Source of the DNA: an uncultured virus (IMG/VR IMGVR_UViG_3300037067_016575)
Taxonomy: Duplodnaviria > Heunggongvirae > Uroviricota > Caudoviricetes
Reading direction: 5' to 3' (one strand)
IMG/VR virus record: IMGVR_UViG_3300037067_016575
Length of the DNA stretch: 20,000 nucleotides
This document shows, in pieces, positions 4,929-20,000 of this stretch. A program made the position numbers and the translations under genes. Numbering within the stretch: position 1 is the stretch's first letter; each line of letters opens with the position of its first letter. The notes beneath the pieces were generated by a model. That model saw nothing but the letters and a program-made list of their open reading frames with translations. It ran no database searches and had not been told where the DNA came from.

Positions 4929-4930
4929 AC

Positions 4931-4950: not shown

Positions 4951-4962
4951 GTGGTTTGGATG

Positions 4963-5190
4963 TCACCCGCAATAATGCACAGAAACCTTACTAGGATTGA
5001 TTCCGTTGGCTTTTAAATGTGCGATCAGTGCTTGGTCGTTCCCGGAACAAATAACCTCGCCATTCGAGATTATTACGTCCGTACGGGGTGACGGGTCAAC
5101 CGGAACCACACTCAAATCCTCATGCCCTAGTGCCGTAAGGTTTGCTCCCGGCATAAAGGCAAGGGAAAAAAGAGGGTTGTGGTTAACCAT
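4963..5190 (-). CDS. hypothetical protein (75 aa) within AAA module
   Basis: ATG 5190 after GGAGG, avoiding overlap with the ATPase; ends HYCG. Confidence 0.7.
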   Translation of the reverse strand: MVNHNPLFSLAFMPGANLTALGHEDLSVVPVDPSPRTDVIISNGEVICSGNDQALIAHLKANGINPSKVSVHYCG

Positions 5191-5206
5191 ATCCTCCCGG
5201 TGCCGC

Positions 5207-7009
5207 TCAGTCAATATCGCCGAGATCGGCTTTGCTGATTTCATCTTTAACGTCATTTTCCGTTACCACGTCGATTGTGCTGGCCCGGGTTCCGATCTTC
5301 TCTTTTGATGATACGATCTTCTTTCGGGCTTCTTCATCGTCCGACGCATTGATCGCGTTCTCTTCCGCCCAACGGATCATTGCATCCAGAATGTCCTTCT
5401 TCTGAGTGGTGATCGGTGTTACATCCTTCATCGCCTTGACAATGTGATCCGTCGTCAGGGGTTTTGCCCCTTCGTCGAATGCGTTACCAAGTGCGTCCTG
5501 AATGGTGTTACGGATTTCACGACCTACAAACCCTTCGCTGGCATCGGCCAGCTTTTCAAGGTCGAAATCTTCTGGGTTACGCTTGACGGCCTTGATGTGG
5601 ATACGGAAGATCTCGATCCGTTCCTTCCGAGTCGGAGCGTTCACGAAAAACATCTTTGGGAACCGGCTCATCAGTTCTGCCTTGAGGCTCGCGTGATCGT
5701 TGCACGTTGCTACGACAAAAACGCCTTTCGACTCTTCCATCTCCGTCAGGAACGACCCGAACAACCGGGCGGATTCCTCGTGCATTTCACCGTTCTGGCC
5801 GGCACCAAGTGCCTTTTCGATCTCATCAATCCAGAGGATACAGGGAGCCAGTGCCTTGGCGAGTTTCCACGTGTTCCTCATGTTGTTAGACGACTCGCCG
5901 TAATATTTACTGACGAGCTGGGACATGTCCAACCGTAGGAGCGGAAGCCGGAGTTCGTTGCCGCACGCCTTCGCGACCAGTGATTTACCAGAGCCGGGAA
6001 CACCGACCATGATAATACCACGGGGCGGGTCAATACCGTATTCCCGAGCCTCCTTTCCGAAGTGCTTTGAGGCAGATCGGATGTACGCTTTCAGGGTGTT
6101 AAGTCCCCCAATAGACTCCGACGTTTCCTCCGGTTCCCAGTACTCAAGCTGACCGGACTTCTTGATGATCTGCTTTTTCTCGCTGATGATCGTCTTGATG
6201 TTCAGATCGCCGTTGATCAGACACTTGGCGAACACGTTCTCGCATTCTTCGAGCGTGAGACCCAGCGCCGCCGCTACTATCGCGTCCTTGTTGGCGTTTA
6301 CCTGATCATTGAGAGTCTTCTTCTTCGCCAGTAGTTTGGTCAGCATCGCTTTCTGCGATTTTGCATTCTCGGGATCACTTGTTTCTTTGATGTTATCCTT
6401 CATCGTCTGTTCCTGATCGGACAGCCCTTTGATCGCAGCGCATAAGATCGCCTCGATCTCGGACTTGTCCGGCAGTGGCACGTCGATGATGCTGATCACT
6501 TTCTGCAAATCGACTGGAATAGATACGACCGGTGAGACAAGGATGATGATTTTCCTCTGTCCTTTCAGAACCGGGACGATATCACGGAGTTTACGCTGTA
6601 CCAACGGAACATCCTTCATGAATCCGTGGGTATCCAGCATAATGAAAATGTTTCCAGCGGTTCGTACTTGTTTGTCGTCTGCTCCCTTGTACTGTTCTGT
6701 GAGCTTCTTGGAACGGACTGCCTCCATTGCGTCGAACAACGTAAGTATCGTAGGGGTGTCGTCGTTTTCCGTTGAGTTTTGATCGGTATTTGTCTGAACC
6801 CATGTCGTGTTTGTTACATCGATCATCCGATGATCGACATTCCTGAAACCTGATGCACCGGAATAGATATACACGGTGCGGTGTTCATCTTTGGCGATAT
6901 CCGCAATGATTTCTATGACACGAGATTCCTCATGGGTTTCAATGGCAATAACCGGGTATCGAGCCCGGATGTGGGTTGATAATTCCTTTTTTAGTTCTGC
7001 AATTCCCAT
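5207..7009 (-). CDS. Ycf46-like AAA+ ATPase (600 aa; degenerate N-terminal domain plus C-terminal AAA domain with intact Walker motifs)
   Basis: N-term IRARYPVIAIETHEESRV; IGGLNTLK; Walker A GVPGSGKS; LPLLRLD; Walker B ILWIDEIEK; sensor-1 ATCN. Confidence 0.9.
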   Translation of the reverse strand: MGIAELKKELSTHIRARYPVIAIETHEESRVIEIIADIAKDEHRTVYIYSGASGFRNVDHRMIDVTNTTWVQTNTDQNSTENDDTPTILTLFDAMEAVRSKKLTEQYKGADDKQVRTAGNIFIMLDTHGFMKDVPLVQRKLRDIVPVLKGQRKIIILVSPVVSIPVDLQKVISIIDVPLPDKSEIEAILCAAIKGLSDQEQTMKDNIKETSDPENAKSQKAMLTKLLAKKKTLNDQVNANKDAIVAAALGLTLEECENVFAKCLINGDLNIKTIISEKKQIIKKSGQLEYWEPEETSESIGGLNTLKAYIRSASKHFGKEAREYGIDPPRGIIMVGVPGSGKSLVAKACGNELRLPLLRLDMSQLVSKYYGESSNNMRNTWKLAKALAPCILWIDEIEKALGAGQNGEMHEESARLFGSFLTEMEESKGVFVVATCNDHASLKAELMSRFPKMFFVNAPTRKERIEIFRIHIKAVKRNPEDFDLEKLADASEGFVGREIRNTIQDALGNAFDEGAKPLTTDHIVKAMKDVTPITTQKKDILDAMIRWAEENAINASDDEEARKKIVSSKEKIGTRASTIDVVTENDVKDEISKADLGDID

Positions 7010-7042
7010 ATTTGGTTAACCTCCCTCCATAGTATAGGGATA

Positions 7043-7066
7043 TTCGGACTTCTATACTGAATGCCA
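7043..7066. promoter_or_regulatory. AAA-module-specific upstream motif, copy b
   Basis: ttcggacttctatactgaatgcca; overlaps inverted repeat agtatag/ctatact (7031-7058). Confidence 0.6.
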
Positions 7067-7070
7067 CATT

Positions 7071-7097
7071 TCCCGGAACACGAACCGGAAAAAAGGG
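7071..7097 (-). repeat. intergenic hairpin element, copy 6
   Basis: tcccggaacacgaaccggaaaaaaggg followed by tta. Confidence 0.95.
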
Positions 7098-7110
7098 TTA
7101 TGCAAACATC

Positions 7111-7404
7111 TCATTTTTTTAACTTATTGTAATACTTTGTCCAAAATGCAAGTGCTTCATTCGGATCGTTCCATCGGTGTTGTTTTATCCATGCGTATGA
7201 CATGCCTGCTGGGTGAGGGGGTATATCCCAAACACCTTTTTTAGATAACTCCCAATAACCCTGATATACCCCGTCTATTAGGTGTGGCACCCCCTTCCGG
7301 ATTGCCCATCTATTTTTTCCGGATATACTTGCGGTTATTAAAGTTATTTGTTGAGATTCCGGTAGGTTTTCAGATAAAAGAGGAATGATTTTCCACAGCG
7401 TCAT
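7111..7404 (-). CDS. hypothetical Trp-rich phage-type protein (97 aa)
   Basis: start moved to ATG 7404 (GGTGA RBS), removing overlap with upstream gene. Confidence 0.75.
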   Translation of the reverse strand: MTLWKIIPLLSENLPESQQITLITASISGKNRWAIRKGVPHLIDGVYQGYWELSKKGVWDIPPHPAGMSYAWIKQHRWNDPNEALAFWTKYYNKLKK

Positions 7405-7408
7405 GTGT

Positions 7409-7819
7409 TCACCCGTAAATAAGTTTTGAAAACAGCGCGTATTGGAGGATTTTGTCTGCAATCCCGGCATCGATGTTTCCTGCATCAAGAGTGTTCTTTC
7501 CGTTTACATTGATTAAAGATACCTCGTTAGGCTGTGATTTCATCCAATCTTTTAATCCTTGTATGAGTCCTCGTTTGGAGAGAGTCAACCGAATGTTTTC
7601 ATCGTCCGGATAGAATAAAATCGTTCCACCGTTGTTTATTGCTGACGAGGCCCATTCTGATAGTGACATTCCTGTTGGTTTTTTGTCATTAGGGTGTTTG
7701 ATAATTATATGACCTATCCAATAGTTTGATCCACCCTCCAACATTGTACAGATAATGTTGTCGAAAAACTCATCGTCGAGTTCGACTTCAACTTCCATGA
7801 AAACTGATTCTTTGACCAT
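7409..7819 (-). CDS. conserved hypothetical phage-type protein (136 aa)
   Basis: LEGGSNYW and C-terminal IDAGIADKILQYALFSKLIYG recall an uncharacterised family seen in phages. Confidence 0.85.
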   Translation of the reverse strand: MVKESVFMEVEVELDDEFFDNIICTMLEGGSNYWIGHIIIKHPNDKKPTGMSLSEWASSAINNGGTILFYPDDENIRLTLSKRGLIQGLKDWMKSQPNEVSLINVNGKNTLDAGNIDAGIADKILQYALFSKLIYG

Positions 7820-7823
7820 AATT

Positions 7824-8306
7824 TTACCTCTTAAATATCATTGTGCTTTTTCCATTAATCCCCAGCACTTCACGTTCTGTACCTTGAATAATTCGCATTA
7901 ACCGATCAATCCAATCGGAATATCTGTGGCAATTTATTGTAAACCGTTTATCCCCAAGAATACAACAAGGCACTACGGCAAAGGGAATATTATTTATTTT
8001 GGCGTATTGAATTATTTCTACCGTTGCCTCGTCTGGATGCATTCCGACGATTAATGAACTGCTTTTTATTTTTTCTTCTTTTGTGAACCATTTGCGAATG
8101 AGTGTCACTTTCTTTAAAAATAGTTGCGAAACGTTCTGTAATCTCGGTTTTGGCTCGAAGACGGTAACCGAATACCCATACTGATACAAACATTTCGAGA
8201 GTTCAAGGTTTCCGTCGGCGATTACTAGAACAGTCGGATATTTTTCGGGGGGGTATTTATAATAAATGTTTTTTGAAAAAATTTCAAATCTCCTTGGATC
8301 TCCCAT
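7824..8306 (-). CDS. putative class I SAM-dependent methyltransferase-fold protein (160 aa)
   Basis: start ATG 8306; motif-I-like VLVIADGNLELS, TVFEP, LIVGMHPDEAT and PFAVVPCC. Confidence 0.6.
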   Translation of the reverse strand: MGDPRRFEIFSKNIYYKYPPEKYPTVLVIADGNLELSKCLYQYGYSVTVFEPKPRLQNVSQLFLKKVTLIRKWFTKEEKIKSSSLIVGMHPDEATVEIIQYAKINNIPFAVVPCCILGDKRFTINCHRYSDWIDRLMRIIQGTEREVLGINGKSTMIFKR

Positions 8307-8342
8307 AACATCTCCCCCAATATGTATATACAGATCCCTTAT

Positions 8343-8367
8343 TTCCCGGAGCGAACCGGAAAAAAGG
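8343..8367 (-). repeat. intergenic hairpin element, copy 7 (6-nt loop)
   Basis: ttcccggagcgaaccggaaaaaagg. Confidence 0.9.
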
Positions 8368-8373
8368 TAAAAA

Positions 8374-8604
8374 TTATCGGAAAATTTTATGCAGGATTTC
8401 GGATGAATCAAAATCGTCTCCATATTGAAGGGATTTGTCCAGTTCCAAAAACTCCCTAATCGTTTCCGGGGATGTTGACTTTTTTATATTACAATACTTG
8501 ATTAAATCCTGTAAACAGTCGTCACAGATATACCCGAATTCCTCATTATATCTACGACATAGGATATGTTCACAGCCTTCTTTAGAACACGGCATTACAC
8601 CCAT
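8374..8604 (-). CDS. small putative Zn-binding protein (76 aa)
   Basis: CxxxxCxxxxC...ICDDC; GAGGTAA RBS. Confidence 0.8.
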   Translation of the reverse strand: MGVMPCSKEGCEHILCRRYNEEFGYICDDCLQDLIKYCNIKKSTSPETIREFLELDKSLQYGDDFDSSEILHKIFR

Positions 8605-8607
8605 AAT

Positions 8608-8856
8608 TTACCTCGTAATGATTTCCTGATTTCCAATTTCCATTAGTTTTTCACGGAGATGGTCTTCTGATACCTGTACTGTTTTTGCTGCTGTTACGAC
8701 CATCGTATCAACAAGCTGCCACGTTTTAATCTGCTCATCCGTCAGAAAGCTTTTGATCTGTTCCGTCGCCATATTCAACGTTGCCTTGTAGATCTCGTGA
8801 GCTCTCTCCGCTTCCATATGACGGCGCATTTCTGCGATGGTATCGTCTGATGACAT
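8608..8856 (-). CDS. hypothetical helical protein (82 aa)
   Basis: ORF, GAGGTGA RBS. Confidence 0.8.
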   Translation of the reverse strand: MSSDDTIAEMRRHMEAERAHEIYKATLNMATEQIKSFLTDEQIKTWQLVDTMVVTAAKTVQVSEDHLREKLMEIGNQEIITR

Positions 8857-8877
8857 CGTTTTTCACCTCTTTTTTTT

Positions 8878-8894
8878 GTATATCGCCGTTATAC
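8878..8894. promoter_or_regulatory. GTATA-N7-TATAC palindrome
   Basis: gtata-tcgccgt-tatac. Confidence 0.7.
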
Positions 8895-8928
8895 AGCGTA
8901 TTCAACTGCTCCTCTGAAATACCCGTTC

Positions 8929-8954
8929 TCCGGAACGTGAACCGGAAAAATGGG
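8929..8954 (-). repeat. intergenic hairpin element, copy 8 (long composite form)
   Basis: tccggaacgtgaaccggaaaaatggg abutting TAA at 8955. Confidence 0.95.
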
Positions 8955-9605
8955 TTAAAATGGTTTCATCCATTTTATTTTGTTGTTTGAGTTTTCCGGG
9001 GTAAAACTTGCCTTGTTAATGGGACTTGTCCACCCGTTCTTTTTCAGCCATCGTTTAACATCTGCGAGTTTCGGATCTCGATCCGATTTTCCATCGATCT
9101 CAAAGAGCGAGTTATTTAAATATACTTCGAAAAATAGTGATCCTTGCCGATCATCAATAGGTAACCGGAAGTACTCTTTGAACTGATCTGTTGATATATC
9201 CTGTTTAACCGTGGGGTCTTTCTTGAAATCGTAATGAGTGATCGTCCCGATAAAACCTTTCTCGATCATTGCGAATACATTTTTTAGTGTATCCGGATCT
9301 TCGTGAGTGATTAATAAACACCCGATTTCACAATAATCGTTTCGTGAAAATATTGTGTGGTTGATGAAATCGATCAGGACTAATCCGTATTCGTCTGGAT
9401 CAATCTCATTAATGAGTTTTGACTTCGGCCATTCGTTTTCGGGTTTGGCATCATTAATGAACTTGTTCAACTCTTTGCCTTGCTCCAAGAAAGAAGGCTG
9501 CATGAAACTCCACGGGAGTATATTTGTCCATGTGCTCATCAGTACTTCTTTGATTGTTCCTTTTTTGTCTTTGTACCTAATACCTACGAAAATTCCTCCG
9601 CCCAT
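8955..9605 (-). CDS. hypothetical protein (216 aa)
   Basis: start moved to ATG 9605 (MGGGIF) after GAGGTGA; the ORF-track extension translates the repeat. Confidence 0.85.
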   Translation of the reverse strand: MGGGIFVGIRYKDKKGTIKEVLMSTWTNILPWSFMQPSFLEQGKELNKFINDAKPENEWPKSKLINEIDPDEYGLVLIDFINHTIFSRNDYCEIGCLLITHEDPDTLKNVFAMIEKGFIGTITHYDFKKDPTVKQDISTDQFKEYFRLPIDDRQGSLFFEVYLNNSLFEIDGKSDRDPKLADVKRWLKKNGWTSPINKASFTPENSNNKIKWMKPF

Positions 9606-9624
9606 AGTTTCACCTCTGAAACTT

Positions 9625-9641
9625 GTATACCGTCGATATAC
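9625..9641. promoter_or_regulatory. GTATA-N7-TATAC palindrome
   Basis: gtata-ccgtcga-tatac. Confidence 0.7.
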
Positions 9642-9674
9642 GACGAATTCAACTGCTCCTCTAAAATACCCGTT

Positions 9675-9700
9675 CTCCGGAACCTGAACCGGAAAAAAGG
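9675..9700 (-). repeat. intergenic hairpin element, copy 9 (long composite form)
   Basis: ctccggaacctgaaccggaaaaaagg abutting TAA at 9701. Confidence 0.95.
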
Positions 9701-9895
9701 TTAATGTTGAATCATTTCGATAGCTGGTGTCCCGGGCATTCGAAAATGATGATCTGTCATTTCGTGGCCGCATTCGGGGCAACGGAATGTTAGTTCAACT
9801 TGAGGATTGTTTGGATCTGACCAGATTTCGATTTTTGTTAAATTCATCATTACACCGGCATGCCCGGTTCCATGACAGTTACAATGGATCGTCAT
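9701..9895 (-). CDS. small Zn-ribbon protein (64 aa)
   Basis: CNCH...CPECG. Confidence 0.75.
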   Translation of the reverse strand: MTIHCNCHGTGHAGVMMNLTKIEIWSDPNNPQVELTFRCPECGHEMTDHHFRMPGTPAIEMIQH

Positions 9896-10105
9896 CTAAT
9901 CATCTCCGTTTGTGCTTGTTGATGCAACGGATTTTATCCCCTTGATCCTGTACATCATTTGTGTTTTTCCGATTGTGTTCCCTTCAATTTCGACGGCTTG
10001 GTTATTTTCTGCCTTTGACATCTCATTGGCGAGTTTCCGAAGCTCTTTTGTTACCTGTTTCTGAGTTAATTTCTCAGAAAACAGTAGCATGATATCTGTA
10101 CCCAT
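9896..10105 (-). CDS. hypothetical protein (69 aa)
   Basis: ORF abutting next gene. Confidence 0.7.
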   Translation of the reverse strand: MGTDIMLLFSEKLTQKQVTKELRKLANEMSKAENNQAVEIEGNTIGKTQMMYRIKGIKSVASTSTNGDD

Positions 10106-10122
10106 CTGTTATCACACCGGGG

Positions 10123-10845
10123 TTAATGTTTGTGCACGTACTGAGGGGTCTGGACAGTGATTACAACGCCTTTAGGGATCTGGTCGCGATTGATATCTTC
10201 GCAGTTACCCCCTTCGGAGTCGCATTGCCAATACGAACCTGCATACGTATAATACGTGTAAACATGAATATCTGCGTCCGGGTCGTCCAGAATATACCGG
10301 TCACCGTATTCATATCCCGTGTTGTAATCGTATTCTCCATTCTCTAACACGTAATACTGGTTTTCGTTATACCGGTACTGAGGATAGAGAACATTCGCCC
10401 GTGGACTGTAAGGATACGTATCACAGTTATCCACGGTGTAAATCGTGCCGTACCCTTCCTGCGTCCCGGTAACCTGACAGGTATACATTTCGTTGGGGTA
10501 TTGATCTCGCCATGAGAAATAGTCCGGGAACACGAGCACAACGTTATCCGTGGTTTGTACGGTGAATTCACGGTCAATCTGGTATGCGGAGTTATATTGT
10601 GCCGCGTGGGTCTCATAGACCGTATACGTGATGGTCGAGGGATACGTTGGGGTTGCTACTGCCGCTGCCGCTACGGTTCCCGCTGTTACATCGGTGTTTA
10701 CCGGGGCTTTTATGAAGGTCATCCCGCCGCCAGTTGCTATTAGGTAGCACGCTGTTCCTACGATTAATAACCCTGCAATTACGACGCCTACGGCTACGAT
10801 AACTGCAAGTTTTCCGCTTAAAGGGGTTGGTTGGTTTTCTGTCAT
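10123..10845 (-). CDS. membrane-anchored Thr/Tyr-rich surface protein (240 aa)
   Basis: N-terminal hydrophobic helix, Ala/Thr linker, Tyr-rich domain with Cys pairs; GGAGG RBS. Confidence 0.85.
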   Translation of the reverse strand: MTENQPTPLSGKLAVIVAVGVVIAGLLIVGTACYLIATGGGMTFIKAPVNTDVTAGTVAAAAVATPTYPSTITYTVYETHAAQYNSAYQIDREFTVQTTDNVVLVFPDYFSWRDQYPNEMYTCQVTGTQEGYGTIYTVDNCDTYPYSPRANVLYPQYRYNENQYYVLENGEYDYNTGYEYGDRYILDDPDADIHVYTYYTYAGSYWQCDSEGGNCEDINRDQIPKGVVITVQTPQYVHKH

Positions 10846-10869
10846 AGTATTTCCTCCGTGTTTTTGTTT

Positions 10870-11136
10870 TTAAAAGATATCTGCCACGAACAGGGCAGGT
10901 AATGCCGGGTTACCCCATCCACCATACGGGATAATTATCCAGTCGAGACCGGAATATTCCGTATCTGCTACATCGTATGCTGCGCTTGCATTACCATACG
11001 TCGAGACATAAAAATACTTGTGTCTGTTAATCACAATGTATTCCCGACCGAGATATGTCTTTTTTCGTTTATCTTTTGGAGTGATTGTATCCTGTTGGAT
11101 TTTAATGTGTTTTTCGATTGATACGCCTTTTGCCAT
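10870..11136 (-). CDS. hypothetical protein (88 aa)
   Basis: ORF in tight operon. Confidence 0.75.
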   Translation of the reverse strand: MAKGVSIEKHIKIQQDTITPKDKRKKTYLGREYIVINRHKYFYVSTYGNASAAYDVADTEYSGLDWIIIPYGGWGNPALPALFVADIF

Positions 11137-11140
11137 GTTC

Positions 11141-11551
11141 TCACTCCCTGATCTCTTTTTGTTCCTTCTCGATCAATGCTGCGAGTTCTGCCCTTGCATC
11201 TGCAAGATCTTTACGTGCTCCGTCAAGACGAGCGGCTTCCGTCTGGATGAGATCTACCCTCATGTTCGGGACAAGCCACATCAGAGAGTTTACCGCCCAT
11301 CCTGCCATTTCTAACGAGGTTATCGGCACGGTTGCAGATCTTATTTTTCCCTCGTCTGCCGCATTATACATCTGGTTTTTGACTTCCGCCGCCTTGTCAA
11401 TAAGGGACTTTTCGATCTCGTCTGCCAGATTTCGTATCGATGTCTCTTTAGATTTCACATACTGATCGTATGAGAAAATTTTGCCTTCCAACCTCTCCCT
11501 CGGGGTTAATTGAACCGGGGGAACTACCGGGACTTTTGGTTTTATTGTCAT
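11141..11551 (-). CDS. hypothetical coiled-coil protein (136 aa)
   Basis: ORF, GAGGTGA RBS, heptad-like A/E/K/L composition. Confidence 0.85.
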   Translation of the reverse strand: MTIKPKVPVVPPVQLTPRERLEGKIFSYDQYVKSKETSIRNLADEIEKSLIDKAAEVKNQMYNAADEGKIRSATVPITSLEMAGWAVNSLMWLVPNMRVDLIQTEAARLDGARKDLADARAELAALIEKEQKEIRE

Positions 11552-11555
11552 GATA

Positions 11556-11720
11556 TCACCTCGTGGTTTCCGGAATCAGATGCCCCTCGTCATCATAAGG
11601 GCAGTTTTCCAAGTCTGGTTCACCCGGGCAAATATCTCCTTTTCGCTCGGGGCATTTTAGACATAGACATTTCTTGCATTGTTTTTCCGTGCCGGGACAT
11701 TTATTACAACCCATTGCCAT
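11556..11720 (-). CDS. small Cys-rich protein (54 aa, 8 Cys)
   Basis: hand-translated MAMGCNKCPGTEKQCKKCLCLKCPERKGDICPGEPDLENCPYDDEGHLIPETTR; GAGGTAA RBS; below ORF-track cutoff. Confidence 0.75.
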   Translation of the reverse strand: MAMGCNKCPGTEKQCKKCLCLKCPERKGDICPGEPDLENCPYDDEGHLIPETTR

Positions 11721-11739
11721 GATTTTACCTCTGAAACTT

Positions 11740-11756
11740 GTATACCGTCGATATAC
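11740..11756. promoter_or_regulatory. GTATA-N7-TATAC palindrome
   Basis: gtata-ccgtcga-tatac. Confidence 0.7.
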
Positions 11757-11790
11757 GACGTATTCAACTACTTACCTGAAATGCCTCGTT

Positions 11791-11816
11791 CTCCGGAACG
11801 TGAACCGGAAAAAGGG
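11791..11816 (-). repeat. intergenic hairpin element, copy 10 (long composite form)
   Basis: ctccggaacgtgaaccggaaaaaggg after tandem TAG TAA. Confidence 0.95.
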
Positions 11817-11819
11817 TTA

Positions 11820-12506
11820 CTATTTATTACAGAAAATTGGTTTATATTCGGGAGGTTCCCCGGCATATGCAACACAAATTGCATTTTTTACTTTTTCTGG
11901 GAGCATTGCGTACCGATCTCTCCCCTGATTTTTTACGGCGTCACAATACATTTTATATCCCTCATCCCATGGGGCGGAGAAATGAGTTTGATGATCCCCC
12001 CAATGTACAAATTTCGGGCGGAATATATCAGATCGGGATATCCATTTTTGAAGGAACGTTCCTTGTTCTGCCAGATAGTTGATACGCCCCGTTATTTCAC
12101 CACACGAATCGCGGCAATCGTGATCCCCTACCCATATTTTATGTGAGCCGACGGTTTCTACCCCCCCACTACACCCGGGCATATACCACGGGTCTTGAGA
12201 GACATATTCCGAAATGAGATCTGCCTGTTCTGGTGAATACTTGCTGAAACAGTAAACAAGAAGGTCTCTGAAATAATCTTCTTGCTTCTTCGGTTCCCAT
12301 TCAAAATAGTAATTTCCCCCATTGACACTCCCCCCATTATAATAGGTGTCAAAGGTTAGCACAATCCCGTAGTTTTCGTGAAAAAATACGTAAAATGTGT
12401 CTTTAATATGATCGGGTTCTATTTTTACTTGAAACGGTATTTCAAGGACTTTTTTAAACCCGAAATTCTCAATTTTTTTGATATAGTTTTCTACATTTTT
12501 CTCCAT
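11820..12506 (-). CDS. hypothetical protein (228 aa)
   Basis: ORF, GAGGTGA RBS, bounded by repeat copies. Confidence 0.9.
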   Translation of the reverse strand: MEKNVENYIKKIENFGFKKVLEIPFQVKIEPDHIKDTFYVFFHENYGIVLTFDTYYNGGSVNGGNYYFEWEPKKQEDYFRDLLVYCFSKYSPEQADLISEYVSQDPWYMPGCSGGVETVGSHKIWVGDHDCRDSCGEITGRINYLAEQGTFLQKWISRSDIFRPKFVHWGDHQTHFSAPWDEGYKMYCDAVKNQGRDRYAMLPEKVKNAICVAYAGEPPEYKPIFCNK

Positions 12507-12525
12507 GAGTTCACCTCGTTTTTTC

Positions 12526-12542
12526 GTATACCTTCGATATAC
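12526..12542. promoter_or_regulatory. GTATA-N7-TATAC palindrome
   Basis: gtata-ccttcga-tatac. Confidence 0.7.
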
Positions 12543-12576
12543 GACGTGTTCAACCTCTCCTCTGAAACACCTCGTT

Positions 12577-12602
12577 CTCCGGAGCGCGAACCGGAAAAAA
12601 GG
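12577..12602 (-). repeat. intergenic hairpin element, copy 11 (long composite form)
   Basis: ctccggagcgcgaaccggaaaaaagg. Confidence 0.9.
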
Positions 12603-12630
12603 TTGGTTTTATTTTCCTCAATTATGGGAT

Positions 12631-12789
12631 TTAGTACGTCTCAAACATGAGGTAGGGGCAACTTTCAGGCCCGTCAACCTCTGCATATACCCGCACTTTA
12701 CGACCATCGGGAAGTTTTGCGAAGAGAACGTTGTTTTCAACAATGAGCACGCCCCCAACAACATCTTCCTGACTTAATGTTTCAAACAT
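12631..12789 (-). CDS. small hypothetical protein (52 aa)
   Basis: hand-translated MFETLSQEDVVGGVLIVENNVLFAKLPDGRKVRVYAEVDGPESCPYLMFETY; starts 3 nt after upstream stop. Confidence 0.65.
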   Translation of the reverse strand: MFETLSQEDVVGGVLIVENNVLFAKLPDGRKVRVYAEVDGPESCPYLMFETY

Positions 12790-12792
12790 TTT

Positions 12793-13047
12793 TTACTTCA
12801 TCTCTTTCATGATCTTTGATTTCATATGGCCGGGAACAGCGCAGAATATGGGGGCGTGGGGTTCACTCTCTGACTTGATCCACGAAAACGGTACGGCACT
12901 TCCTACGATAACAAACGCCAGAATTGAGATAAGTGCACCGAAATAGAGGTTGTTTAGGAAAAGTCCTGCCAGTATTCCCCCAACCATCGAGGACAACCCG
13001 ATCCATGCGAGAAGTTTTTCCCCTTTTTCTTTACCGAATTGAATCAT
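12793..13047 (-). CDS. small membrane protein, 2 TM (84 aa)
   Basis: two hydrophobic segments; GGAGGT RBS. Confidence 0.8.
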   Translation of the reverse strand: MIQFGKEKGEKLLAWIGLSSMVGGILAGLFLNNLYFGALISILAFVIVGSAVPFSWIKSESEPHAPIFCAVPGHMKSKIMKEMK

Positions 13048-13337
13048 GTTTTTACCTCCGTAATTTCTCCCTGAATTACACCGTTCGGGTATTCGTAGAC
13101 GATGAATTTGATTTTGGATTCCCCGCCAACGTATAACGTGCCGGAAAACTCGAAAACTGTAATCGCATCCACCGAATACTTTACGTTATCTATGTCCCTC
13201 GGAAATGTGATCCCATTAAATGATGCCTCATATTTTACCGCCGATATCATCGGTTCTCTATCCCTTAAATAACATTCTTTCCGAAGGATCGTTATCTGCC
13301 CTAACTCTATATCGTAGAGTTTTTTTCTTTGCTCCAT
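13044..13337 (-). CDS. hypothetical protein (97 aa)
   Basis: ATGA overlap with downstream gene. Confidence 0.8.
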   Translation of the reverse strand: MEQRKKLYDIELGQITILRKECYLRDREPMISAVKYEASFNGITFPRDIDNVKYSVDAITVFEFSGTLYVGGESKIKFIVYEYPNGVIQGEITEVKT

Positions 13338-13340
13338 GCC

Positions 13341-13703
13341 TCACCTTCTAGTTTTGACGTTCAGGGTTGCTTTTAACCCGTTGTATTCCTCATTATACCC
13401 GAGCCTGCCCCCGAGGAATTTATACACTGAAAACTCCACTCCGTTAATGTAATCGGCGATTTCTCCCGTAAAATATTTTACTGAAAGTTTGCCGTCGATT
13501 AACAGAACAACTTCTGAGAACTTTACAGGGTGTTTGTGGTTTCCAGCACAGTGGACGGTGACGTTATTATATCCGACAACACCGTTTTCTTTTGTTACGG
13601 TGATCGTCGTTGCTTTTTCGGAGTGCACCATTTCCCATAAATCCGGACGGTTGCCGAACATGTTTTCCGGTTTGTCTGATTTAATAAGGCGATCAAAAAT
13701 CAT
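13341..13703 (-). CDS. hypothetical protein (120 aa)
   Basis: ATGA overlap with upstream gene. Confidence 0.8.
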   Translation of the reverse strand: MIFDRLIKSDKPENMFGNRPDLWEMVHSEKATTITVTKENGVVGYNNVTVHCAGNHKHPVKFSEVVLLIDGKLSVKYFTGEIADYINGVEFSVYKFLGGRLGYNEEYNGLKATLNVKTRR

Positions 13704-14191
13704 TTTCTCACCCTCCTATGGGGTCGATATCTCGTTGGTTCTGCCGGGGCGAATACTTTCTTTGGAACGACGGTAATAACTTTTTCTTTCGGAAACGGCG
13801 TGGCGTTCCTCGGAATGTGATTTACCTCGTAGTTTGTACAGTTCTCGCAGGTCGGCGGGGTTCCGTTAAGTAAGTCGTCGAAGTTTATTCCGTTCCTGAA
13901 AACTCCTGAAACGGTTTCCATCGCGGAACGGATCGGATAATACAAATAGGTGATTCCCCCTATAATGAGAAGAAGACCCCCCATGAATCCGACGAGTAAT
14001 ACGGTTTTCGGGAAAAAGGTGTCGATTGTCGGCATTGTCAGGGTTTCACTCCCGGACATACTCCCCGCCGAGAATGACGAGGGGATGGTAAGGACGTTGT
14101 TTAGGGTATCTATCCCGATTTTTGCGAGCAGGACTACCCCGCACACAATAAGCGCGATGCCTACTATTTTCGTCAGAAATTCTTTCCTCAT
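13700..14191 (-). CDS. membrane protein, 2 TM plus CxxC (163 aa)
   Basis: start moved to ATG 14191 (MRKEFL); the extension translates the palindrome. Confidence 0.8.
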   Translation of the reverse strand: MRKEFLTKIVGIALIVCGVVLLAKIGIDTLNNVLTIPSSFSAGSMSGSETLTMPTIDTFFPKTVLLVGFMGGLLLIIGGITYLYYPIRSAMETVSGVFRNGINFDDLLNGTPPTCENCTNYEVNHIPRNATPFPKEKVITVVPKKVFAPAEPTRYRPHRRVRK

Positions 14192-14216
14192 GATACCAAC
14201 TCCGTTGAAATTTTTC

Positions 14217-14233
14217 GTATACCGCCGATATAC
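14217..14233. promoter_or_regulatory. GTATA-N7-TATAC palindrome (no hairpin element here)
   Basis: gtata-ccgccga-tatac. Confidence 0.7.
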
Positions 14234-14240
14234 AGTCCGT

Positions 14241-14546
14241 TTACACATCCACGGTTTTATCCGTATATTTGTAAACTGACCCGTTTAAACACGTTAAATA
14301 TCGGCGTTGTTCAACCTTTGTAACCGGATATATGGTACAGACCTTTACGCAGATCAGGCGCGTACTTTCAAAATACCTGTCTTCTGTGTGATTAACCGTT
14401 ATTGAGCACGATTGATCGATTGTTGATTCTTCCGATGGGGAAAATATACATACGGCAATTATTGCCACAAGAAGAACCACACAGATAACCATACAGATCG
14501 AGAGCCCCCATTCTATTCCGTCCCAATTTTTCCAAAAATTTTTCAT
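14241..14546 (-). CDS. single-TM protein with Cys-containing outer domain (101 aa)
   Basis: N-terminal hydrophobic helix; GAGGTG RBS. Confidence 0.8.
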   Translation of the reverse strand: MKNFWKNWDGIEWGLSICMVICVVLLVAIIAVCIFSPSEESTIDQSCSITVNHTEDRYFESTRLICVKVCTIYPVTKVEQRRYLTCLNGSVYKYTDKTVDV

Positions 14547-14580
14547 TACACCACCTCACTAATGTATATGCATACCCGAA

Positions 14581-14603
14581 TCCCGGAACCCAAACCGGAA
14601 AAA
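14581..14603 (-). repeat. intergenic hairpin element, copy 12
   Basis: tcccggaacccaaaccggaaaaa abutting TAA at 14604. Confidence 0.85.
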
Positions 14604-15128
14604 TTAAACGTGCGTCGTTGGGGATTCTGATACGTATATTACTGCTCCGAAAAAGGTTAGTATGTTCCCCACCCAGAACAGGCACCACATAAGCGTTGTC
14701 GCCACTACAAACGAATAAATTAAGTATCCGTTGTATAAGCACAACCCAAACGCAATTACGCCTATCATTGCGGATATGCTTTTTAATGTTAGTGATGAAG
14801 TCCTTGATGTTAGGTGCGCAATAAATGTGGTTAGTGTGTAAAGCCAGAAAATAATCCACATTCCCGGATCTGCATTGATAAAATTAAATAAATGGTAGTA
14901 AGTTACAACCACAACCGCTGTTGAAATTACCCCAATGAGTTTTCCGAATCCATCTAATGCGGGGATTCTCATTAGGATAAAACCCACACTGCCGGTAACT
15001 ACATACACTCCGAAAAGCAACCAGATCACCGACGGTGCCTTTACAAGGTCATATAAGAGATACGACGCTACGAGACTTGAAACAAGTCCGATGATACTCA
15101 TAAAGATGCTAATTCCTTTACTTGCCAT
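14604..15128 (-). CDS. polytopic membrane protein, ~6 TM, three internal repeats (174 aa)
   Basis: start moved to ATG 15128 (MASKGIS) after GAGGTG; 3x IG[LV][VI]...Y.[LI]...A....W.[LI]F. Confidence 0.85.
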   Translation of the reverse strand: MASKGISIFMSIIGLVSSLVASYLLYDLVKAPSVIWLLFGVYVVTGSVGFILMRIPALDGFGKLIGVISTAVVVVTYYHLFNFINADPGMWIIFWLYTLTTFIAHLTSRTSSLTLKSISAMIGVIAFGLCLYNGYLIYSFVVATTLMWCLFWVGNILTFFGAVIYVSESPTTHV

Positions 15129-15148
15129 GATTCCACCTCGTGAAATTT

Positions 15149-15165
15149 GTATAACGTCGATATAC
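15149..15165. promoter_or_regulatory. GTATA-N7-TATAC palindrome
   Basis: gtata-acgtcga-tatac. Confidence 0.7.
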
Positions 15166-15201
15166 GACGTATTCAAACCACTCGCCTGAAAACACATCGC
15201 T

Positions 15202-15227
15202 CCCCGGAACATGAACCGGGAAAAATG
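15202..15227 (-). repeat. intergenic hairpin element, copy 13 (long composite form)
   Basis: ccccggaacatgaaccgggaaaaatg followed by tta. Confidence 0.9.
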
Positions 15228-15232
15228 TTAAT

Positions 15233-15649
15233 TTATGATGCCGGGCTTTTTGCTTCCCGTTCTGCATCGCGTTTTTCTATGACTTCCCCGGCACCGATAA
15301 GCGCCCCGATAAACTTTTGCTGTACTGGATCAAGGGCGAAACACGCATTAAAGTTACGTGCTTCTTCGAGAGACGCATACACGCCGATCCCATCGAATAT
15401 GACATGTCCTTTCTCGTCGATCCCCATGACTTTGATCGGTGAATACGTGCTTTTCTTCGGCGTATTCCACCAACCATTTTTCGGGTTTTTCGTCTGTGAT
15501 ACTGCCCGTTGCCCGGCTTTTGTGGATTCGATCCAGAACCGGATCATCGTTCGCAGTTTAAACCCATACGGATAATCATCGACGACAAAAGCGGTTTCTT
15601 CGCTCGTGTGTCCAGTAAGCTGTTTTATGAATGGTTTGTGTTCGTACAT
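15233..15649 (-). CDS. conserved hypothetical protein of mobile elements (138 aa)
   Basis: GHTSEETAFVVDDYPYGFKLR...WNTPKKSTY recalls an uncharacterised phage/plasmid family; GAGGTAA RBS. Confidence 0.85.
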   Translation of the reverse strand: MYEHKPFIKQLTGHTSEETAFVVDDYPYGFKLRTMIRFWIESTKAGQRAVSQTKNPKNGWWNTPKKSTYSPIKVMGIDEKGHVIFDGIGVYASLEEARNFNACFALDPVQQKFIGALIGAGEVIEKRDAEREAKSPAS

Positions 15650-15668
15650 GATTTTACCTCGTGTTTTC

Positions 15669-15685
15669 GTATACCGTCGATATAC
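15669..15685. promoter_or_regulatory. GTATA-N7-TATAC palindrome
   Basis: gtata-ccgtcga-tatac. Confidence 0.7.
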
Positions 15686-15691
15686 GGTATA

Positions 15692-15724
15692 CCTGTTTTT
15701 CCGGAACGTGAACCGTAAAACAGG
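15692..15724 (-). repeat. intergenic hairpin element, copy 14 (extended stem)
   Basis: cctgtttttccggaacgtgaaccgtaaaacagg. Confidence 0.9.
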
Positions 15725-15729
15725 CAGAT

Positions 15730-16010
15730 CTTATGGATTTTTAAGACGTGCTTTTTGGATATAGACCTCCCGAATGAACGGAGATAACGAAGGTATCCCG
15801 CCGTCACAAAAGCGTTTCGGACGGCGGGATCTTACTGATGAGGTCTATTTTTGGGGAGTTCTTTGGTTTGAGAGGTTTGGTCTGTGTGTATCTGTGCTCG
15901 TGCTGCTTTACTAGGTTTAGTTTCGGCAGAATACGGTAACCGTCTATCTGCGCTAAAGGTCGTAGACCTGATTAATTCCCGCCGTAAACAAGACGACGGG
16001 GGAATCGAGA
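15730..16010 (-). ncRNA. candidate structured non-coding RNA cassette
   Basis: no RBS-supported ORF; nested stems 15761-15769/15840-15848 and 15795-15805/15820-15830; strand inferred from context. Confidence 0.4.
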
Positions 16011-16040
16011 CCCCGGAATGAACCGTGAACCTCGTAAAAA
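16011..16040 (-). repeat. divergent hairpin element copy
   Basis: ccccggaatgaaccgtgaacctcgtaaaaa abutting TAA at 16041. Confidence 0.65.
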
Positions 16041-16487
16041 TTATTTTTTCGTTGGTGTTCTACTAATTGGGTCTCCTGCCGGGGTGAATCCATGTTGGAT
16101 CATCATGGTTGCCCGTCGTAATTCACCCATATAACACATTGTATGATATTGGTCTTCTGCCATCCTTTCATTATCTGTTTTTGCTCCGAATGGTAGTTGA
16201 ATGTGTTCGGCAACAAAATCGAAAAGGTATTGGTATTCAACGAAGTTAATGAATACCGGGCCGAGACGCATTTCCTGAAGTAAATCTCGGTCTGTGTAGG
16301 TTAATACATGTCCTTCATCGAGATGTATATAACCCCTTTCTTCTCCGAAATGCGGCCAAATCACACTTGATACCTCAATAATTTTCCGGTCTTTCCAATA
16401 AAACCCGTCGGTTTTCCATGAAACGTCTTCCCGACAGAAAGGCACTTCAATTAAATCAGATGTGTTTAATGATGATTTTAGTTTCAC
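16041..16487 (-). CDS. hypothetical protein (148 aa)
   Basis: GTG start after GAGGTGA. Confidence 0.8.
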   Translation of the reverse strand: MKLKSSLNTSDLIEVPFCREDVSWKTDGFYWKDRKIIEVSSVIWPHFGEERGYIHLDEGHVLTYTDRDLLQEMRLGPVFINFVEYQYLFDFVAEHIQLPFGAKTDNERMAEDQYHTMCYMGELRRATMMIQHGFTPAGDPISRTPTKK

Positions 16488-16513
16488 ATTATCACCTCTT
16501 TGTTTTTAATTCG

Positions 16514-16543
16514 GAGGGTTAGGAACAATGAACCTCTACCCTC
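16514..16543 (-). repeat. divergent hairpin element copy (new stem, similar loop)
   Basis: coding strand GAGGGTAGAGG-TTCATTGTT-CCTAACCCTC. Confidence 0.5.
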
Positions 16544-16663
16544 GCAGAAACCGATTTTGTTTTAGGACAGGGAAGTTTTTTTACTACTTCCGAAAACGCA
16601 CGGTTAACGGCTATTACGCCTTATACTCAATTCCTTACCTCTTCGATGGTCGGGGGTAAGGGG

Positions 16664-16698
16664 ATATGTTGCCCCGTAGTGAACCGGGGAAAACATAT
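16664..16698 (-). repeat. divergent hairpin element copy
   Basis: coding strand ATATGTTTTCCCCGG-TTCACTA-CGGGGCAACATAT directly after stop at 16698. Confidence 0.65.
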
Positions 16699-17177
16699 TA
16701 TTCCCTGTCGGGACAGGGAATAACCGGGCCATCATACCACATATGACCCATGCAATAAATACAATTAATGACCTCGTATGCTTCCTTGCTGTTGTTTGCG
16801 TTGGCATACAAGCGGAGATTATTTGATCCGTACGACGTATACGGAACTATTTTTGCTAATCCCCCCGCTCGTTTGATTGCGTCCCGTGCTAATTCTACAG
16901 TTTCCCGCGTATGGAATGAACGCACCTTTAAATACACTTTTCTCCCGTATTTACGGGGCATTGGCTCGCAGAATCCCTCTGCAAGCCCCATATTGCCGTC
17001 GGTTGTTTGTATTACTGTGATTAGACCACGGGGCGGGTCAATGCCGTATTCCCGAGCCTCCTTTCCGAAGTGCTTTGAGGCAAATCGAATGTACGCTTTC
17101 AGGGTGTTTAACCCTCCAATGGATTCTGGTGTTTCCGACGGTTCCCTTGTCATTACGTCCACGGCATGTGTTACCAT
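16698..17177 (-). CDS. chimeric protein (159 aa) carrying a 40-aa segment of the AAA ATPase
   Basis: ESIGGLNTLKAYIRFASKHFGKEAREYGIDPPRG nearly identical to the ATPase segment. Confidence 0.75.
   Translation of the reverse strand: MVTHAVDVMTREPSETPESIGGLNTLKAYIRFASKHFGKEAREYGIDPPRGLITVIQTTDGNMGLAEGFCEPMPRKYGRKVYLKVRSFHTRETVELARDAIKRAGGLAKIVPYTSYGSNNLRLYANANNSKEAYEVINCIYCMGHMWYDGPVIPCPDRE
17025..17146 (-). repeat. 122-bp direct repeat of 6017-6138
   Basis: hand alignment: 14 mismatches, no gaps. Confidence 0.95.
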
Positions 17178-17361: not shown

Positions 17362-17802
17362 TCATTTCCCCCCTTTCTTTTTACGTTGTGCTTTCTTGAA
17401 ATCCTGATATTTTTTGTCTTCTTTCTCCCGGATCGCCTTACCCTCATCAACATGGATCGCCATGCCTTCCGGGACACATTGACCTTTGGCAAGCAGTTCC
17501 GCAATGCTCCGGCATGCCAGTATTGCTTTATCCGGGGTTGAGATAGGGGGTGTCTTGTAATCGATCCTTCGGTTCCGATCAAATACCCGGCCCTCATATT
17601 GACCGTCCGTTAGGGGGAAAATGTTGTATTCCTTGTGGTGATGCTTTCGCATGGGATACAACGCCCGGACTTGCGTTATGGGGGTTTTAGGGGCATCCCC
17701 GTTTGGTTGATGCCACCCGCAATAAGATTTATCGGGGCATTGCCCGGTTATGTTGCATTTCTCCTCATTGATACAGGGAGGTTTTGTTTTTTTGAGTGCC
17801 AT
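17362..17802 (-). CDS. hypothetical basic protein with N-terminal Cys/His cluster (146 aa)
   Basis: C-x5-C-x5-C-x5-C-x2-H; GAGG RBS. Confidence 0.8.
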   Translation of the reverse strand: MALKKTKPPCINEEKCNITGQCPDKSYCGWHQPNGDAPKTPITQVRALYPMRKHHHKEYNIFPLTDGQYEGRVFDRNRRIDYKTPPISTPDKAILACRSIAELLAKGQCVPEGMAIHVDEGKAIREKEDKKYQDFKKAQRKKKGGK

Positions 17803-17838: not shown

Positions 17839-18243
17839 TTAATGAGTTTTCATGTATTTTTTTACGGCTGTGTTCACCGCGCTCCCAGATGCAGTAATCC
17901 CAAGGAATCCCGCGTGTTTTTCATCGCTGCAATATTGAGCATATGCGTTGATATCTTCGGGTTGCGGTTTCTCACTCCACGACACAAAGAGTGTTGTGTA
18001 TCTGTCTGGACACCCGTGGCAACCAGAGGTTATTACCGTATCTGCAAAAAACCTCTTAAGTGGGTTTTGCCTTTTCATGCCCCATCCGCGTACCGTGTCC
18101 GGAATCCACTTCTCGTTTTTACGAGAGCATATCGCGGAACCGCACTCAATAATGAGAGCGGTGGGGCGTCCATCGTCGGTATATTGAACGTACCCTTTCT
18201 TATTGTGGAACCGCTCGTTTTTTCCAACTTTCCAAATACTCAT
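17839..18243 (-). CDS. hypothetical protein (134 aa)
   Basis: AGGTGA RBS; AT-rich TTTATAATA tract upstream. Confidence 0.8.
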   Translation of the reverse strand: MSIWKVGKNERFHNKKGYVQYTDDGRPTALIIECGSAICSRKNEKWIPDTVRGWGMKRQNPLKRFFADTVITSGCHGCPDRYTTLFVSWSEKPQPEDINAYAQYCSDEKHAGFLGITASGSAVNTAVKKYMKTH

Positions 18244-18276
18244 CTTGGTTCACCTGCATTAATTATATTATAAATT

Positions 18277-18305
18277 CCCGGACGACGGAATGACCCGACG
18301 CCGGG
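18277..18305 (-). repeat. divergent hairpin element copy (long stem)
   Basis: coding strand CCCGGCGTCGG-GTCATT-CCGTCGTCCGGG; preceded by TTTTAACGAGTTTC, similar to the 16011-16040 copy. Confidence 0.5.
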
Positions 18306-18779
18306 CGAAACTCGTTAAAACTACTCGGGATAATTCAGTGCCTTAATTGGTTACCACCACGGCAACACCGCGTTTTAACTCGTTATTTTGGTTTCTGACA
18401 ATGCGGGGATTTACACGCCTTCGTAGGCTCACGGCCACCGGCGATACCATGTTGTCAAATTCTTACTTTTCTTTGGAAATTTGATATTCCCGTCAATCGG
18501 CTCGCGCCGATATCCCGATTGTGCATATGTATTCTCACCTCGTAAGTGTGTTAGGATGTTGAACTATACGCGCTATCGGTTGACGGGAGAAACTGAATGG
18601 CTTTACGTCTTCGAACTTCACTCTGTCAGGATTTCCGATGTTGGTTTGTAAATCGATATGCAAAACACCCCGGGCATTTTACATGGTACGGAAATTCAGG
18701 AGAAAACGGTTTTTTCTGACTTCGCTTAAAGATACGCTTGAATTTAATCGGGTATTACTCGGTAGTAGATAATGAGATA

Positions 18780-19540
18780 AACTACAAACTGCCACCCTCG
18801 TTTTTTACGGCAGCTACCCAACGTATCACAGGATCAAAGTCTTCTTACCAACCCGGCGCGGCATGTCGCGCCTTGCCGGGCGAGATCTTTGATCGAGGGT
18901 TCCCATTATTGGGATCGTCTAACTTGCCAGAGCACACAAACCCGTCAAGGCTTATGCCCGGTACTCGCCCTGTGTTCGTTCCGGCGCGTCTCAATACCGC
19001 AAACAGTAACGACAACAAACTGGCGTGCTCCCTGATAGAGTGCACGGGTTTTATTGGCGTTGTGTCTCTCCGTATGGTCAATACGGCAGAAACCGCTTTG
19101 TATCTCTTACGTTCCTCGTGGAACTGTCCACATTAGGGCGGATCTTACCCTCCGCTGGCTGATTTTCCAAAAGGACAATCCGACGTATCCAATGGTTCTT
19201 TTGACGGAAAAAGAGTATTTTTAGGGTATGTTGGGTTGTCAACATTCCCCGTCGAACCAATGTGCTTTTTCAGTAGTTCCCCGTAAAGGGACGGCCCGGA
19301 TACCTTGCCGCATTATCTCTGGCTAAAATCGCTGCTCCCGAGGAGCTAGCGCCGTTATTGACACACGGTAGGACACGCCGTAAATCGGATTGACTTACAC
19401 CGTGTCCCTTCGATATCGCACGTATTGGCTTACCGTCGGATTGTCCTCACCTACGAGGTTCCCGGGCAGGGGAATTGTTTTTCCCCGCCCTTGTGTCCTC
19501 TCCATCGGTTGTTTCTTGCTTGCTCACCTTCGACAATCCA
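18780..19540 (-). ncRNA. candidate large structured non-coding RNA
   Basis: no convincing CDS; perfect 14-bp long-range stem 19172-19185/19434-19447 and many nested hairpins; strand inferred from TATA-like box and gene orientation. Confidence 0.5.
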
Positions 19541-19556
19541 GTGTTGGACGGGGTTG

Positions 19557-19572
19557 TATATATATCTTGCGA
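19557..19572 (-). promoter_or_regulatory. possible archaeal BRE/TATA promoter
   Basis: minus strand CGCAAG-ATATATATA, just upstream of the structured region. Confidence 0.35.
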
Positions 19573-20000
19573 AATTTGAAATTTCACTCTTCACGTCTGA
19601 CTATGCACTTTTTTGTACATCGGGGAATTTTAAAATCCTGTATATGCAGCCTTATCGCGCATTTTTCCCCGCGCTTGTCCCGTACCCCCCGCTACTGTTT
19701 TGAGGGGAAAAGGGGGTAGGGGGTATTAGGGGAAATGAGAGGAGACGGCAAGGGAAGGGGGCGTTTGTCCTGTGGGGTAAATGCGGTTAACCTCGCCCGT
19801 AGGGAGATATCCTTTTTCCCGTTGTAAATCTCTCAAATACCGTGGATTTTACCGGGATATCTTGTGCCGCGTATATATCGAAATTTAAAGCGGGACGTAT
19901 AGAGATCGGCATAGGTGTATATATGCATGCTGAAATGATCCTGATGCAGTGCACTCCGTAGAAAGGGAGAAGGGGGGGTAAATCTAAGGGGGAGCTTAAG

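What the first reader, a model, noticed from the sequence alone, without database searches (positions are those of the whole stretch)
18780..19540. Candidate large (~0.75 kb or more) multi-domain structured RNA at the head of the array
Seen: gene density collapses after 18243. A perfect 14-bp stem aggacaatccgacg/cgtcggattgtcct (19172-19185/19434-19447) encloses nested helices at 19193-19259, 19330-19351 and 19371-19407. Other stems are 19464-19490, 19070-19086, and accctcg/cgagggt (18794/18894) around gatcaaag/ctttgatc. A second gacaatcc at 19532-19539 could compete for the same strand, giving an alternative fold. A TATA-like box lies at 19557-19565. I could not find RNase P, group I or group II catalytic signatures. 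Inference: an unclassified large ncRNA or a long structured leader; large ncRNAs such as GOLLD and ROOL are known from phages.
Basis: partly seen in the sequence, partly recalled or inferred. Interest (0 to 1): 0.74.

Follow-up and report, generated by a model that had tools for sequence, protein, structure and literature searches.

The report
Large folded RNA candidate, archaeal virus
A gene-free stretch in front of the early genes of a probable methanogen virus looks like the gene for a large, strongly folded RNA of no catalogued family, but it is known from this one virus only and has not been seen as a transcript.

Summary
The structure is real. All named helices are present. The perfect 14-bp stem is reached by 3 of 2000 shuffles. 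18787-19534 folds 48 kcal/mol better than its shuffles (z -6.0), against at most 30 for 25 other tiles of the window. The minus strand folds better, and the TATA box with its BRE points that way, predicting a start near 19534. Two domains fold independently (z -7.2 and -3.7). There is no Rfam family, no catalytic signature and no coding remnant. Against an ornate RNA: no GNRA/UNCG loops, no significant kissing loops, and an inconclusive RNA-versus-DNA test (22 G-U, 19 A-C). No full-length homologue was found, so covariation is untested, and no RNA run was available. Best reading (0.45): a stand-alone early RNA that works like GOLLD/ROOL as a scaffold or protein decoy, but is a member of neither. 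Rivals: a cis-acting leader (0.2), a DNA-level element (0.15), separate small RNAs (0.1), chance (0.1).

The parts
19557..19571 (-). Archaeal-type promoter: TATA run 19565-19557 with a purine-rich BRE-like element just upstream; predicted start near G19534
   Evidence: Sequence; TATA centred about 27 nt upstream per PMC5316973 passages. Inferred, not mapped.
18787..19534 (-). Predicted ~750-nt structured non-coding RNA (3' end uncertain)
   Evidence: z -6.0, 0 of 40 shuffles; best of 26 tiles of this size; no Rfam family
19449..19534 (-). 5' segment with hairpin 19490-19464 (one bulged U)
   Evidence: z only -1.65 alone. A strain variant adds one G that closes the bulge as a G-U pair (one contig, depth 2.5).
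19171..19448 (-). Domain I: 278 nt closed by the 14-15-bp stem (19448-19434 / 19185-19171), extended by CCAA/UUGG, enclosing a three-way and a larger multi-way junction
   Evidence: z -7.2 minus, -5.0 plus; interior without the stem z -4.05
19370..19408 (-). 16-bp hairpin whose loop region CAAUCCGA (19392-19385) could alternatively pair with 19183-19176
   Evidence: the alternative pairing is inference
19401..19426 (-). Weak likeness to palindromic element B of the array repeat
   Evidence: Weight-matrix score 17.3, 0 of 300 shuffles, but not recovered by profile HMMs: inconclusive
19169..19172 (-). U4 tract right after the long stem: possible end of a shorter ~365-nt RNA
   Evidence: 19168-19534 alone z -6.3; inference
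18787..19170 (-). Domain II: a string of hairpins (19155-19138, 19093-19064, 19061-19008, 18957-18934, 18914-18901) and a junction closed by ACCCUC/GAGGGU around GAUCAAAG/CUUUGAUC
   Evidence: z -3.7 minus, -1.8 plus
18260..18786 (-). Non-coding spacer, not significantly folded as a whole; not counted in the RNA
   Evidence: z -1.2, 5 of 30 shuffles; strain variants at 18460 and 18482 break a predicted hairpin
18250..18275 (-). Separate TATA (18274-18267) and Shine-Dalgarno (18255-18250) of the first array gene
   Evidence: the same 27-nt spacing puts a start at the ATG at 18243
17839..18243 (-). First gene of the array, 134 aa, unknown function
   Evidence: 18 relatives at 67-79% identity; 74% to IMG/VR locus L001

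Best explanation
18787-19534 is the gene for a stand-alone, non-coding RNA of about 750 nt, made leftwards from its own archaeal TATA promoter at the head of the early-gene array of a probable methanogen virus. It folds into two domains rich in junctions. Most likely it acts in trans early in infection as an abundant scaffold or decoy that binds host or viral proteins, as proposed for GOLLD and ROOL, not as a ribozyme or a base-pairing guide. Shown: the helices, the excess folding energy, the promoter-like sequence, and the absence of coding or known-family signal. Inferred: transcription, start and end, host, early timing, abundance and the scaffold/decoy role.
For: Folding excess of 48 kcal/mol versus at most 30 in 25 other tiles; both domains and the stem's interior are significant alone. 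The minus strand is better with RNA energies in both domains, and domain II loses most of its excess and all strand preference with DNA energies (z -2.2 / -2.3). TATA+BRE sits directly upstream on the same strand. The next gene has its own TATA. One variant insertion fills a bulge as a G-U pair on the minus strand (hairpin -16.7 to -21.6 kcal/mol; plus strand -17.6 to -18.5). In a sediment run, 19500-19675 (promoter and first 35 nt) is 95% identical while pieces of the gene 17362-17802 are 88-91% (pieces may come from different organisms). Setting: Ycf46-like AAA, DUF2997 and DUF3150-like genes typical of viruses; viral records sharing neighbouring genes carry MreA-like, archaeal XerA-like and MCM genes. 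No ribozyme or guide signature.
Against: No full-length homologue, so no covariation. Strand-symmetric stem count is 22 G-U versus 19 A-C, and 10 versus 10 at the stricter cut-off. Domain I also folds well as DNA (z -6.5 / -5.1). 0 GNRA or UNCG loops among 19. The best loop-loop match (7 bp) is reached by 12 of 177 shuffles. High-probability pair count is matched by 3 of 25 shuffles. Only U4-U5 tracts follow, so there is no clear terminator. Nothing here tests the scaffold/decoy role.
Confidence: 0.45

Rival explanations
1. It is the structured 5' part of a long read-through transcript (about 1.3-kb leader) that controls stability, termination or translation of the early array in cis.
For: Same strand as all array genes; no tract of six or more U between 19534 and 18243; the first gene keeps a Shine-Dalgarno that a transcript starting at its ATG could not use; a 12-bp pairing between 19459-19448 and a Shine-Dalgarno-like site at 18548-18537 exists.
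Against: The first gene has its own TATA; the 527 nt in between are not significantly folded; the 12-bp pairing is within chance by my estimate (about 0.35 expected) and the small ORF behind that site is frameshifted in two variant contigs; other viruses' copies of the first gene have different upstream DNA (loose ends at 18246-18253; L001).
Confidence: 0.2
2. The structure works as DNA (replication origin, packaging or entry signal, folded single-stranded DNA) and is not a functional RNA.
For: Perfect Watson-Crick 14-bp inverted repeat; domain I folds well on both strands with DNA energies; G-U/A-C count does not separate the strands; the adjacent 19600-20000 is non-coding with G-runs.
Against: Domain II prefers the minus strand only with RNA energies; many helices need G-U ends; a promoter points into it; no iteron-like direct repeats.
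Confidence: 0.15
3. It is two or more separate RNAs: a ~365-nt RNA (19534-19169) ending at the U4 after the long stem, plus a second RNA or a cluster of hairpins downstream.
For: Stem followed by UUUU; 19168-19534 alone has z -6.3; pairings that join the domains have low probability (about 0.6) and change with the 5' boundary.
Against: No second TATA-like site between 19170 and 18790 in the window scan; U4 is a short tract.
Confidence: 0.1
4. Non-functional intergenic DNA: chance hairpins plus decayed array cassettes.
For: The window has a high background of minus-strand structure (9 of 80 tiles at z <= -3); a weak element-B-like stretch lies inside.
Against: Best of 26 tiles by 18 kcal/mol; repeat HMMs find no cassette remnant; no coding remnant; the promoter region is 95% kept in a relative.
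Confidence: 0.1

Closest known systems
GOLLD RNA
   Same: Size near 800 nt, virus-encoded, two-part layout, unknown function (PMC12286853 passages).
   Different: No Rfam match to E 10; no tRNA in the window; probable archaeal host; conserved 3' region and cage formation not shown.
ROOL RNA
   Same: Large, multi-junction, phage-associated (581 nt average, six multistem junctions, three pseudoknots: PMC5737381 passage).
   Different: No Rfam match; longer; no significant pseudoknot or loop-loop pairing; no tRNA neighbours.
Archaeal RNase P RNA
   Same: Domain I is about 280 nt closed by a long terminal helix; the array downstream carries T-loop-like hairpins.
   Different: No CR-V motif and no P4 partner (motifs recalled); no Rfam match.
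Retron ncRNA (msr-msd)
   Same: A perfect 14-bp inverted repeat enclosing hairpins (family layout recalled, not from a call).
   Different: No reverse transcriptase in the window; the downstream gene is unrelated; DNA right of the window not seen.

Membership tests
GOLLD | Match to the Rfam covariance model, including the conserved 3' region | tested here: not met
   No hit to E 10 on the region or on either domain
GOLLD | Phage or prophage location, often near tRNAs | tested here: inconclusive
   Viral setting likely; 0 tRNAs in 20 kb; rest of the contig not held
GOLLD | RNA-only homo-oligomeric cage | not testable with these tools
   Needs in vitro transcription with mass photometry or cryo-EM
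ROOL | Match to the Rfam model | tested here: not met
ROOL | Many multistem junctions with three pseudoknots | tested here: inconclusive
   Junctions predicted; no pairing of 6 bp or more between unpaired segments; best loop-loop match reached by 12 of 177 shuffles
RNase P RNA | CR-I and CR-V forming the P4 pseudoknot | tested here: not met
   A loose CR-I pattern matches at 19463 and 19149, CR-V nowhere on either strand (recalled motifs); no Rfam hit
Group I intron | P7 elements R and S; Rfam catalytic core | tested here: not met
Group II intron | Domain V with AGC triad | tested here: not met
   One loose pattern match at 18953 lies in a short hairpin unlike domain V; no Rfam hit
SRP RNA, C/D or H/ACA guides, small ribozymes, tRNA/tmRNA | Helix-8 motif, box C, hammerhead core, Rfam or ARAGORN match | tested here: not met
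   only a chance SNORA71 hit at E 8
Retron | Reverse transcriptase gene directly downstream | tested here: not met
   31 window proteins scanned, no RT
Structured ncRNA in general | Covariation among homologues | tested here: inconclusive
   No homologue found; one structure-compatible insertion
Structured ncRNA in general | A discrete transcript | not testable with these tools
   No RNA holder listed

The most novel reading that the evidence does not exclude
A new class of large RNA of methanogen viruses that is functionally coupled to the array it heads: it recognises by shape the repeated 12-13-bp hairpins with a T-loop-like loop that separate the early genes, and processes or stabilises their transcripts, a role like RNase P or a T-box with an unrelated fold. 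Pairing-based guidance scored no better than shuffles and RNase P motifs are missing; shape recognition is not excluded.
Probability: 0.05. Interest if true: 0.9.

Novelty: new variant of a known kind. Interest (0 to 1): 0.48.

Why it matters
The function of large virus-encoded RNAs such as GOLLD and ROOL is an open question, and the described families are bacterial. A ~750-nt RNA with its own promoter at the head of the early genes of a methanogen virus would extend the theme to methanogens with an unrelated sequence, and it can be transcribed and probed in vitro at once. My paper searches (listings only) showed no description of such an RNA in methanogen viruses; subscription papers are not covered. 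The value is limited for now by having one sequence and no transcript.

Tried and rejected
Homologue searches, all empty for the RNA: blastn of 50,697 phage records, no match to E 1; plasmids, 2 chance 44-nt hits; whole records behind L001 and L165; 44 of 50 further handles searched, one chance 23-nt hit, 6 metagenome loci not held; nhmmer over all 202 fetched loci, no hit to E 1; long-stem pattern in IMG/VR, 5 of 5 hits unrelated. No whole genome is held. Expression: no RNA holder listed, which is no evidence either way. The sediment run X7 has no contig over 18565-19499 at depth about 3; a hole proves nothing. 20 of 60 difference rows were not shown, so the six substitutions in the 19431-19601 variant could not be checked against the fold. 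Antisense to array element A: an 11-nt complement looked rare (2 of 3000, chosen after the fact), but duplex energies were worse than 84 of 100 shuffles: rejected. Decayed cassette: HMMs negative. MITE: no target-site duplication flanks the 14-bp arms. Sigma-70 scan uninformative. No covariance model was built, since one sequence gives no useful model.

Full report
Setting. The window is an array of minus-strand genes, mostly of unknown function. It includes a Ycf46-like AAA ATPase with DUF2997 and DUF3150-like neighbours. The genes are separated by a repeat of up to about 100 nt: a U-tract with a 12-13-bp hairpin (element A), a palindrome (element B) and a GAGGTGA ribosome-binding site. The contig runs up to 83,165 bases, but no genome is held. 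The DNA occurs in landfill and groundwater metagenomes, three of which may be its source. The host is inferred, not shown: TATA boxes and GAGGTGA sites are archaeal in style, and IMG/VR records that share the two nearest genes carry an MreA-like regulator, an archaeal XerA-like gene, a weak Methanoculleus-type S-layer match and an MCM (the NCBIfam scores are below the curated cut-offs). One relative of the first gene is labelled Alphaproteobacteria in a MAG, which speaks against this or reflects mis-binning.

Observation. Every helix named is present. The 14-bp perfect stem is reached by 3 of 2000 shuffles. The given stretch folds at z -4.6 on the minus strand and -2.8 on the plus strand. With refined ends, 18787-19534 has z -6.0, 0 of 40 shuffles, an excess of 48 kcal/mol against at most 30 for 25 other 750-nt tiles (7 shuffles each). 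Domain I (19448-19171) has z -7.2, its interior alone -4.05, and domain II (19170-18787) -3.7; the spacer 18260-18786 is not significant. Limits: the ends were picked after looking; 9 of 80 250-nt tiles of the window reach z <= -3; and the count of well-determined pairs is matched by 3 of 25 shuffles. Identical contigs in a study not marked as a source cover most of the region.

Not coding, not a known family. 15 frames give nothing in Pfam and two E 0.06-0.09 PHROG hits; 0 of 5 long ORFs are in the protein collection. Rfam gives nothing credible on the window, the region or either domain; ARAGORN finds no tRNA or tmRNA. Recalled motifs for RNase P CR-V, hammerhead, group I, box C and SRP helix 8 are absent; loose CR-I and domain V patterns match without their partners.

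Strand and ends. The TATA run 19565-19557 has a purine-rich BRE-like element on its right, so it points left. With the box centred about 27 nt upstream (PMC5316973, passages, Thermococcus data) the start is near G19534, after a pyrimidine. An internal loop sequence at 19392-19385 could compete for the 3' arm instead. The 3' end is open: only U4-U5 tracts follow, one right after the long stem. The first array gene has its own TATA, whose spacing gives a start at its ATG, yet it also keeps a Shine-Dalgarno, so read-through remains possible.

RNA or DNA. With RNA energies both domains prefer the minus strand; with DNA energies domain II drops to z -2.2 / -2.3 while domain I stays strong. A strand-neutral stem count gave 22 G-U and 19 A-C, so this test decides nothing. 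One natural variant, a single contig at depth 2.5, inserts a base that closes a bulge as G-U on the minus strand. A relative in a sediment run keeps the promoter and first 35 nt at 95% while pieces of a nearby gene are 88-91%. These hints are small.

Ornateness. The predicted fold has multi-way junctions, but no GNRA or UNCG loop among 19, and its best loop-loop match (7 bp, 19207-19201 with 18948-18942) is reached by 12 of 177 shuffles. It looks less ornate than GOLLD or ROOL as described in PMC12286853 and PMC5737381 (passages; supplements not opened, and the 224-motif supplement may hold motifs outside Rfam).

Link to the array. A likeness to element B at 19426-19401 passed a weight-matrix test (0 of 300 shuffles) and failed an HMM test. 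An 11-nt complement to the loop of element A looked rare, but duplex energies were worse than 84 of 100 shuffles. I do not claim a guide role.

Homologues. None full-length was found. Absence of homologues is therefore not established.

Mechanism. Most likely (0.45) an early, stand-alone RNA acting in trans as a scaffold or protein decoy, by analogy with GOLLD and ROOL; only the structure and promoter are shown. Rivals are a cis-acting leader (0.2), a DNA-level element (0.15), two smaller RNAs (0.1) and non-functional sequence (0.1). Earlier AI notes of this scan describe similar large RNAs at the head of early regions in other archaeal viruses; none shares sequence with this one by their index, and they are leads, not support.

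Verdict. A real, strongly folded non-coding element and a fair candidate for a new large RNA in a probable methanogen virus. It works perhaps like GOLLD/ROOL and is a member of neither. One sequence, no covariation and no transcript keep interest moderate.

Noticed in passing
window 150-16700, between genes, minus strand: Array repeat: U5-6 tract within a 12-13-bp hairpin with a T-loop-like 6-8-nt loop (9 exact pattern matches, 0 expected; folds), then a palindrome and a GAGGTGA site. Could be terminator, processing or recombination signals.
   Followed up: partly
window 17018-17146: 88% copy of 6010-6138 of the AAA gene embedded in ORF 16698-17177; suggests shuffling within the array.
   Followed up: no
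window 19600-20000: Non-coding, with G-runs and a second TATA-like site near 19880-19870 preceded by the same AAATTTCG word as the promoter at 19570; possible origin or genome end.
   Followed up: no
window 18488-18588: Nested hairpin (z -3.75 for 18450-18599) that holds a Shine-Dalgarno and the start of a 23-codon ORF; the ORF is frameshifted in variants.
   Followed up: partly
window 18001-18250, 5001-5250, 2251-2500, 3001-3250, 15501-16000: Other minus-strand tiles with z from -3 to -5.7, some coding and some intergenic.
   Followed up: no
window 3395-7009: Module of Ycf46-like AAA, DUF2997 and DUF3150-like genes; a distinct AAA clade of about 13 proteins at 44-66% identity.
   Followed up: partly
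L001 78-2533: Reverse transcriptase with a neighbouring variable-looking gene, resembling a diversity-generating retroelement.
   Followed up: no
window 19503-19490 and 19072-19060: Near-identical words GGAGAGGACACAA and GGAGAGACACAA on the minus strand, one per domain; significance not tested.
   Followed up: no
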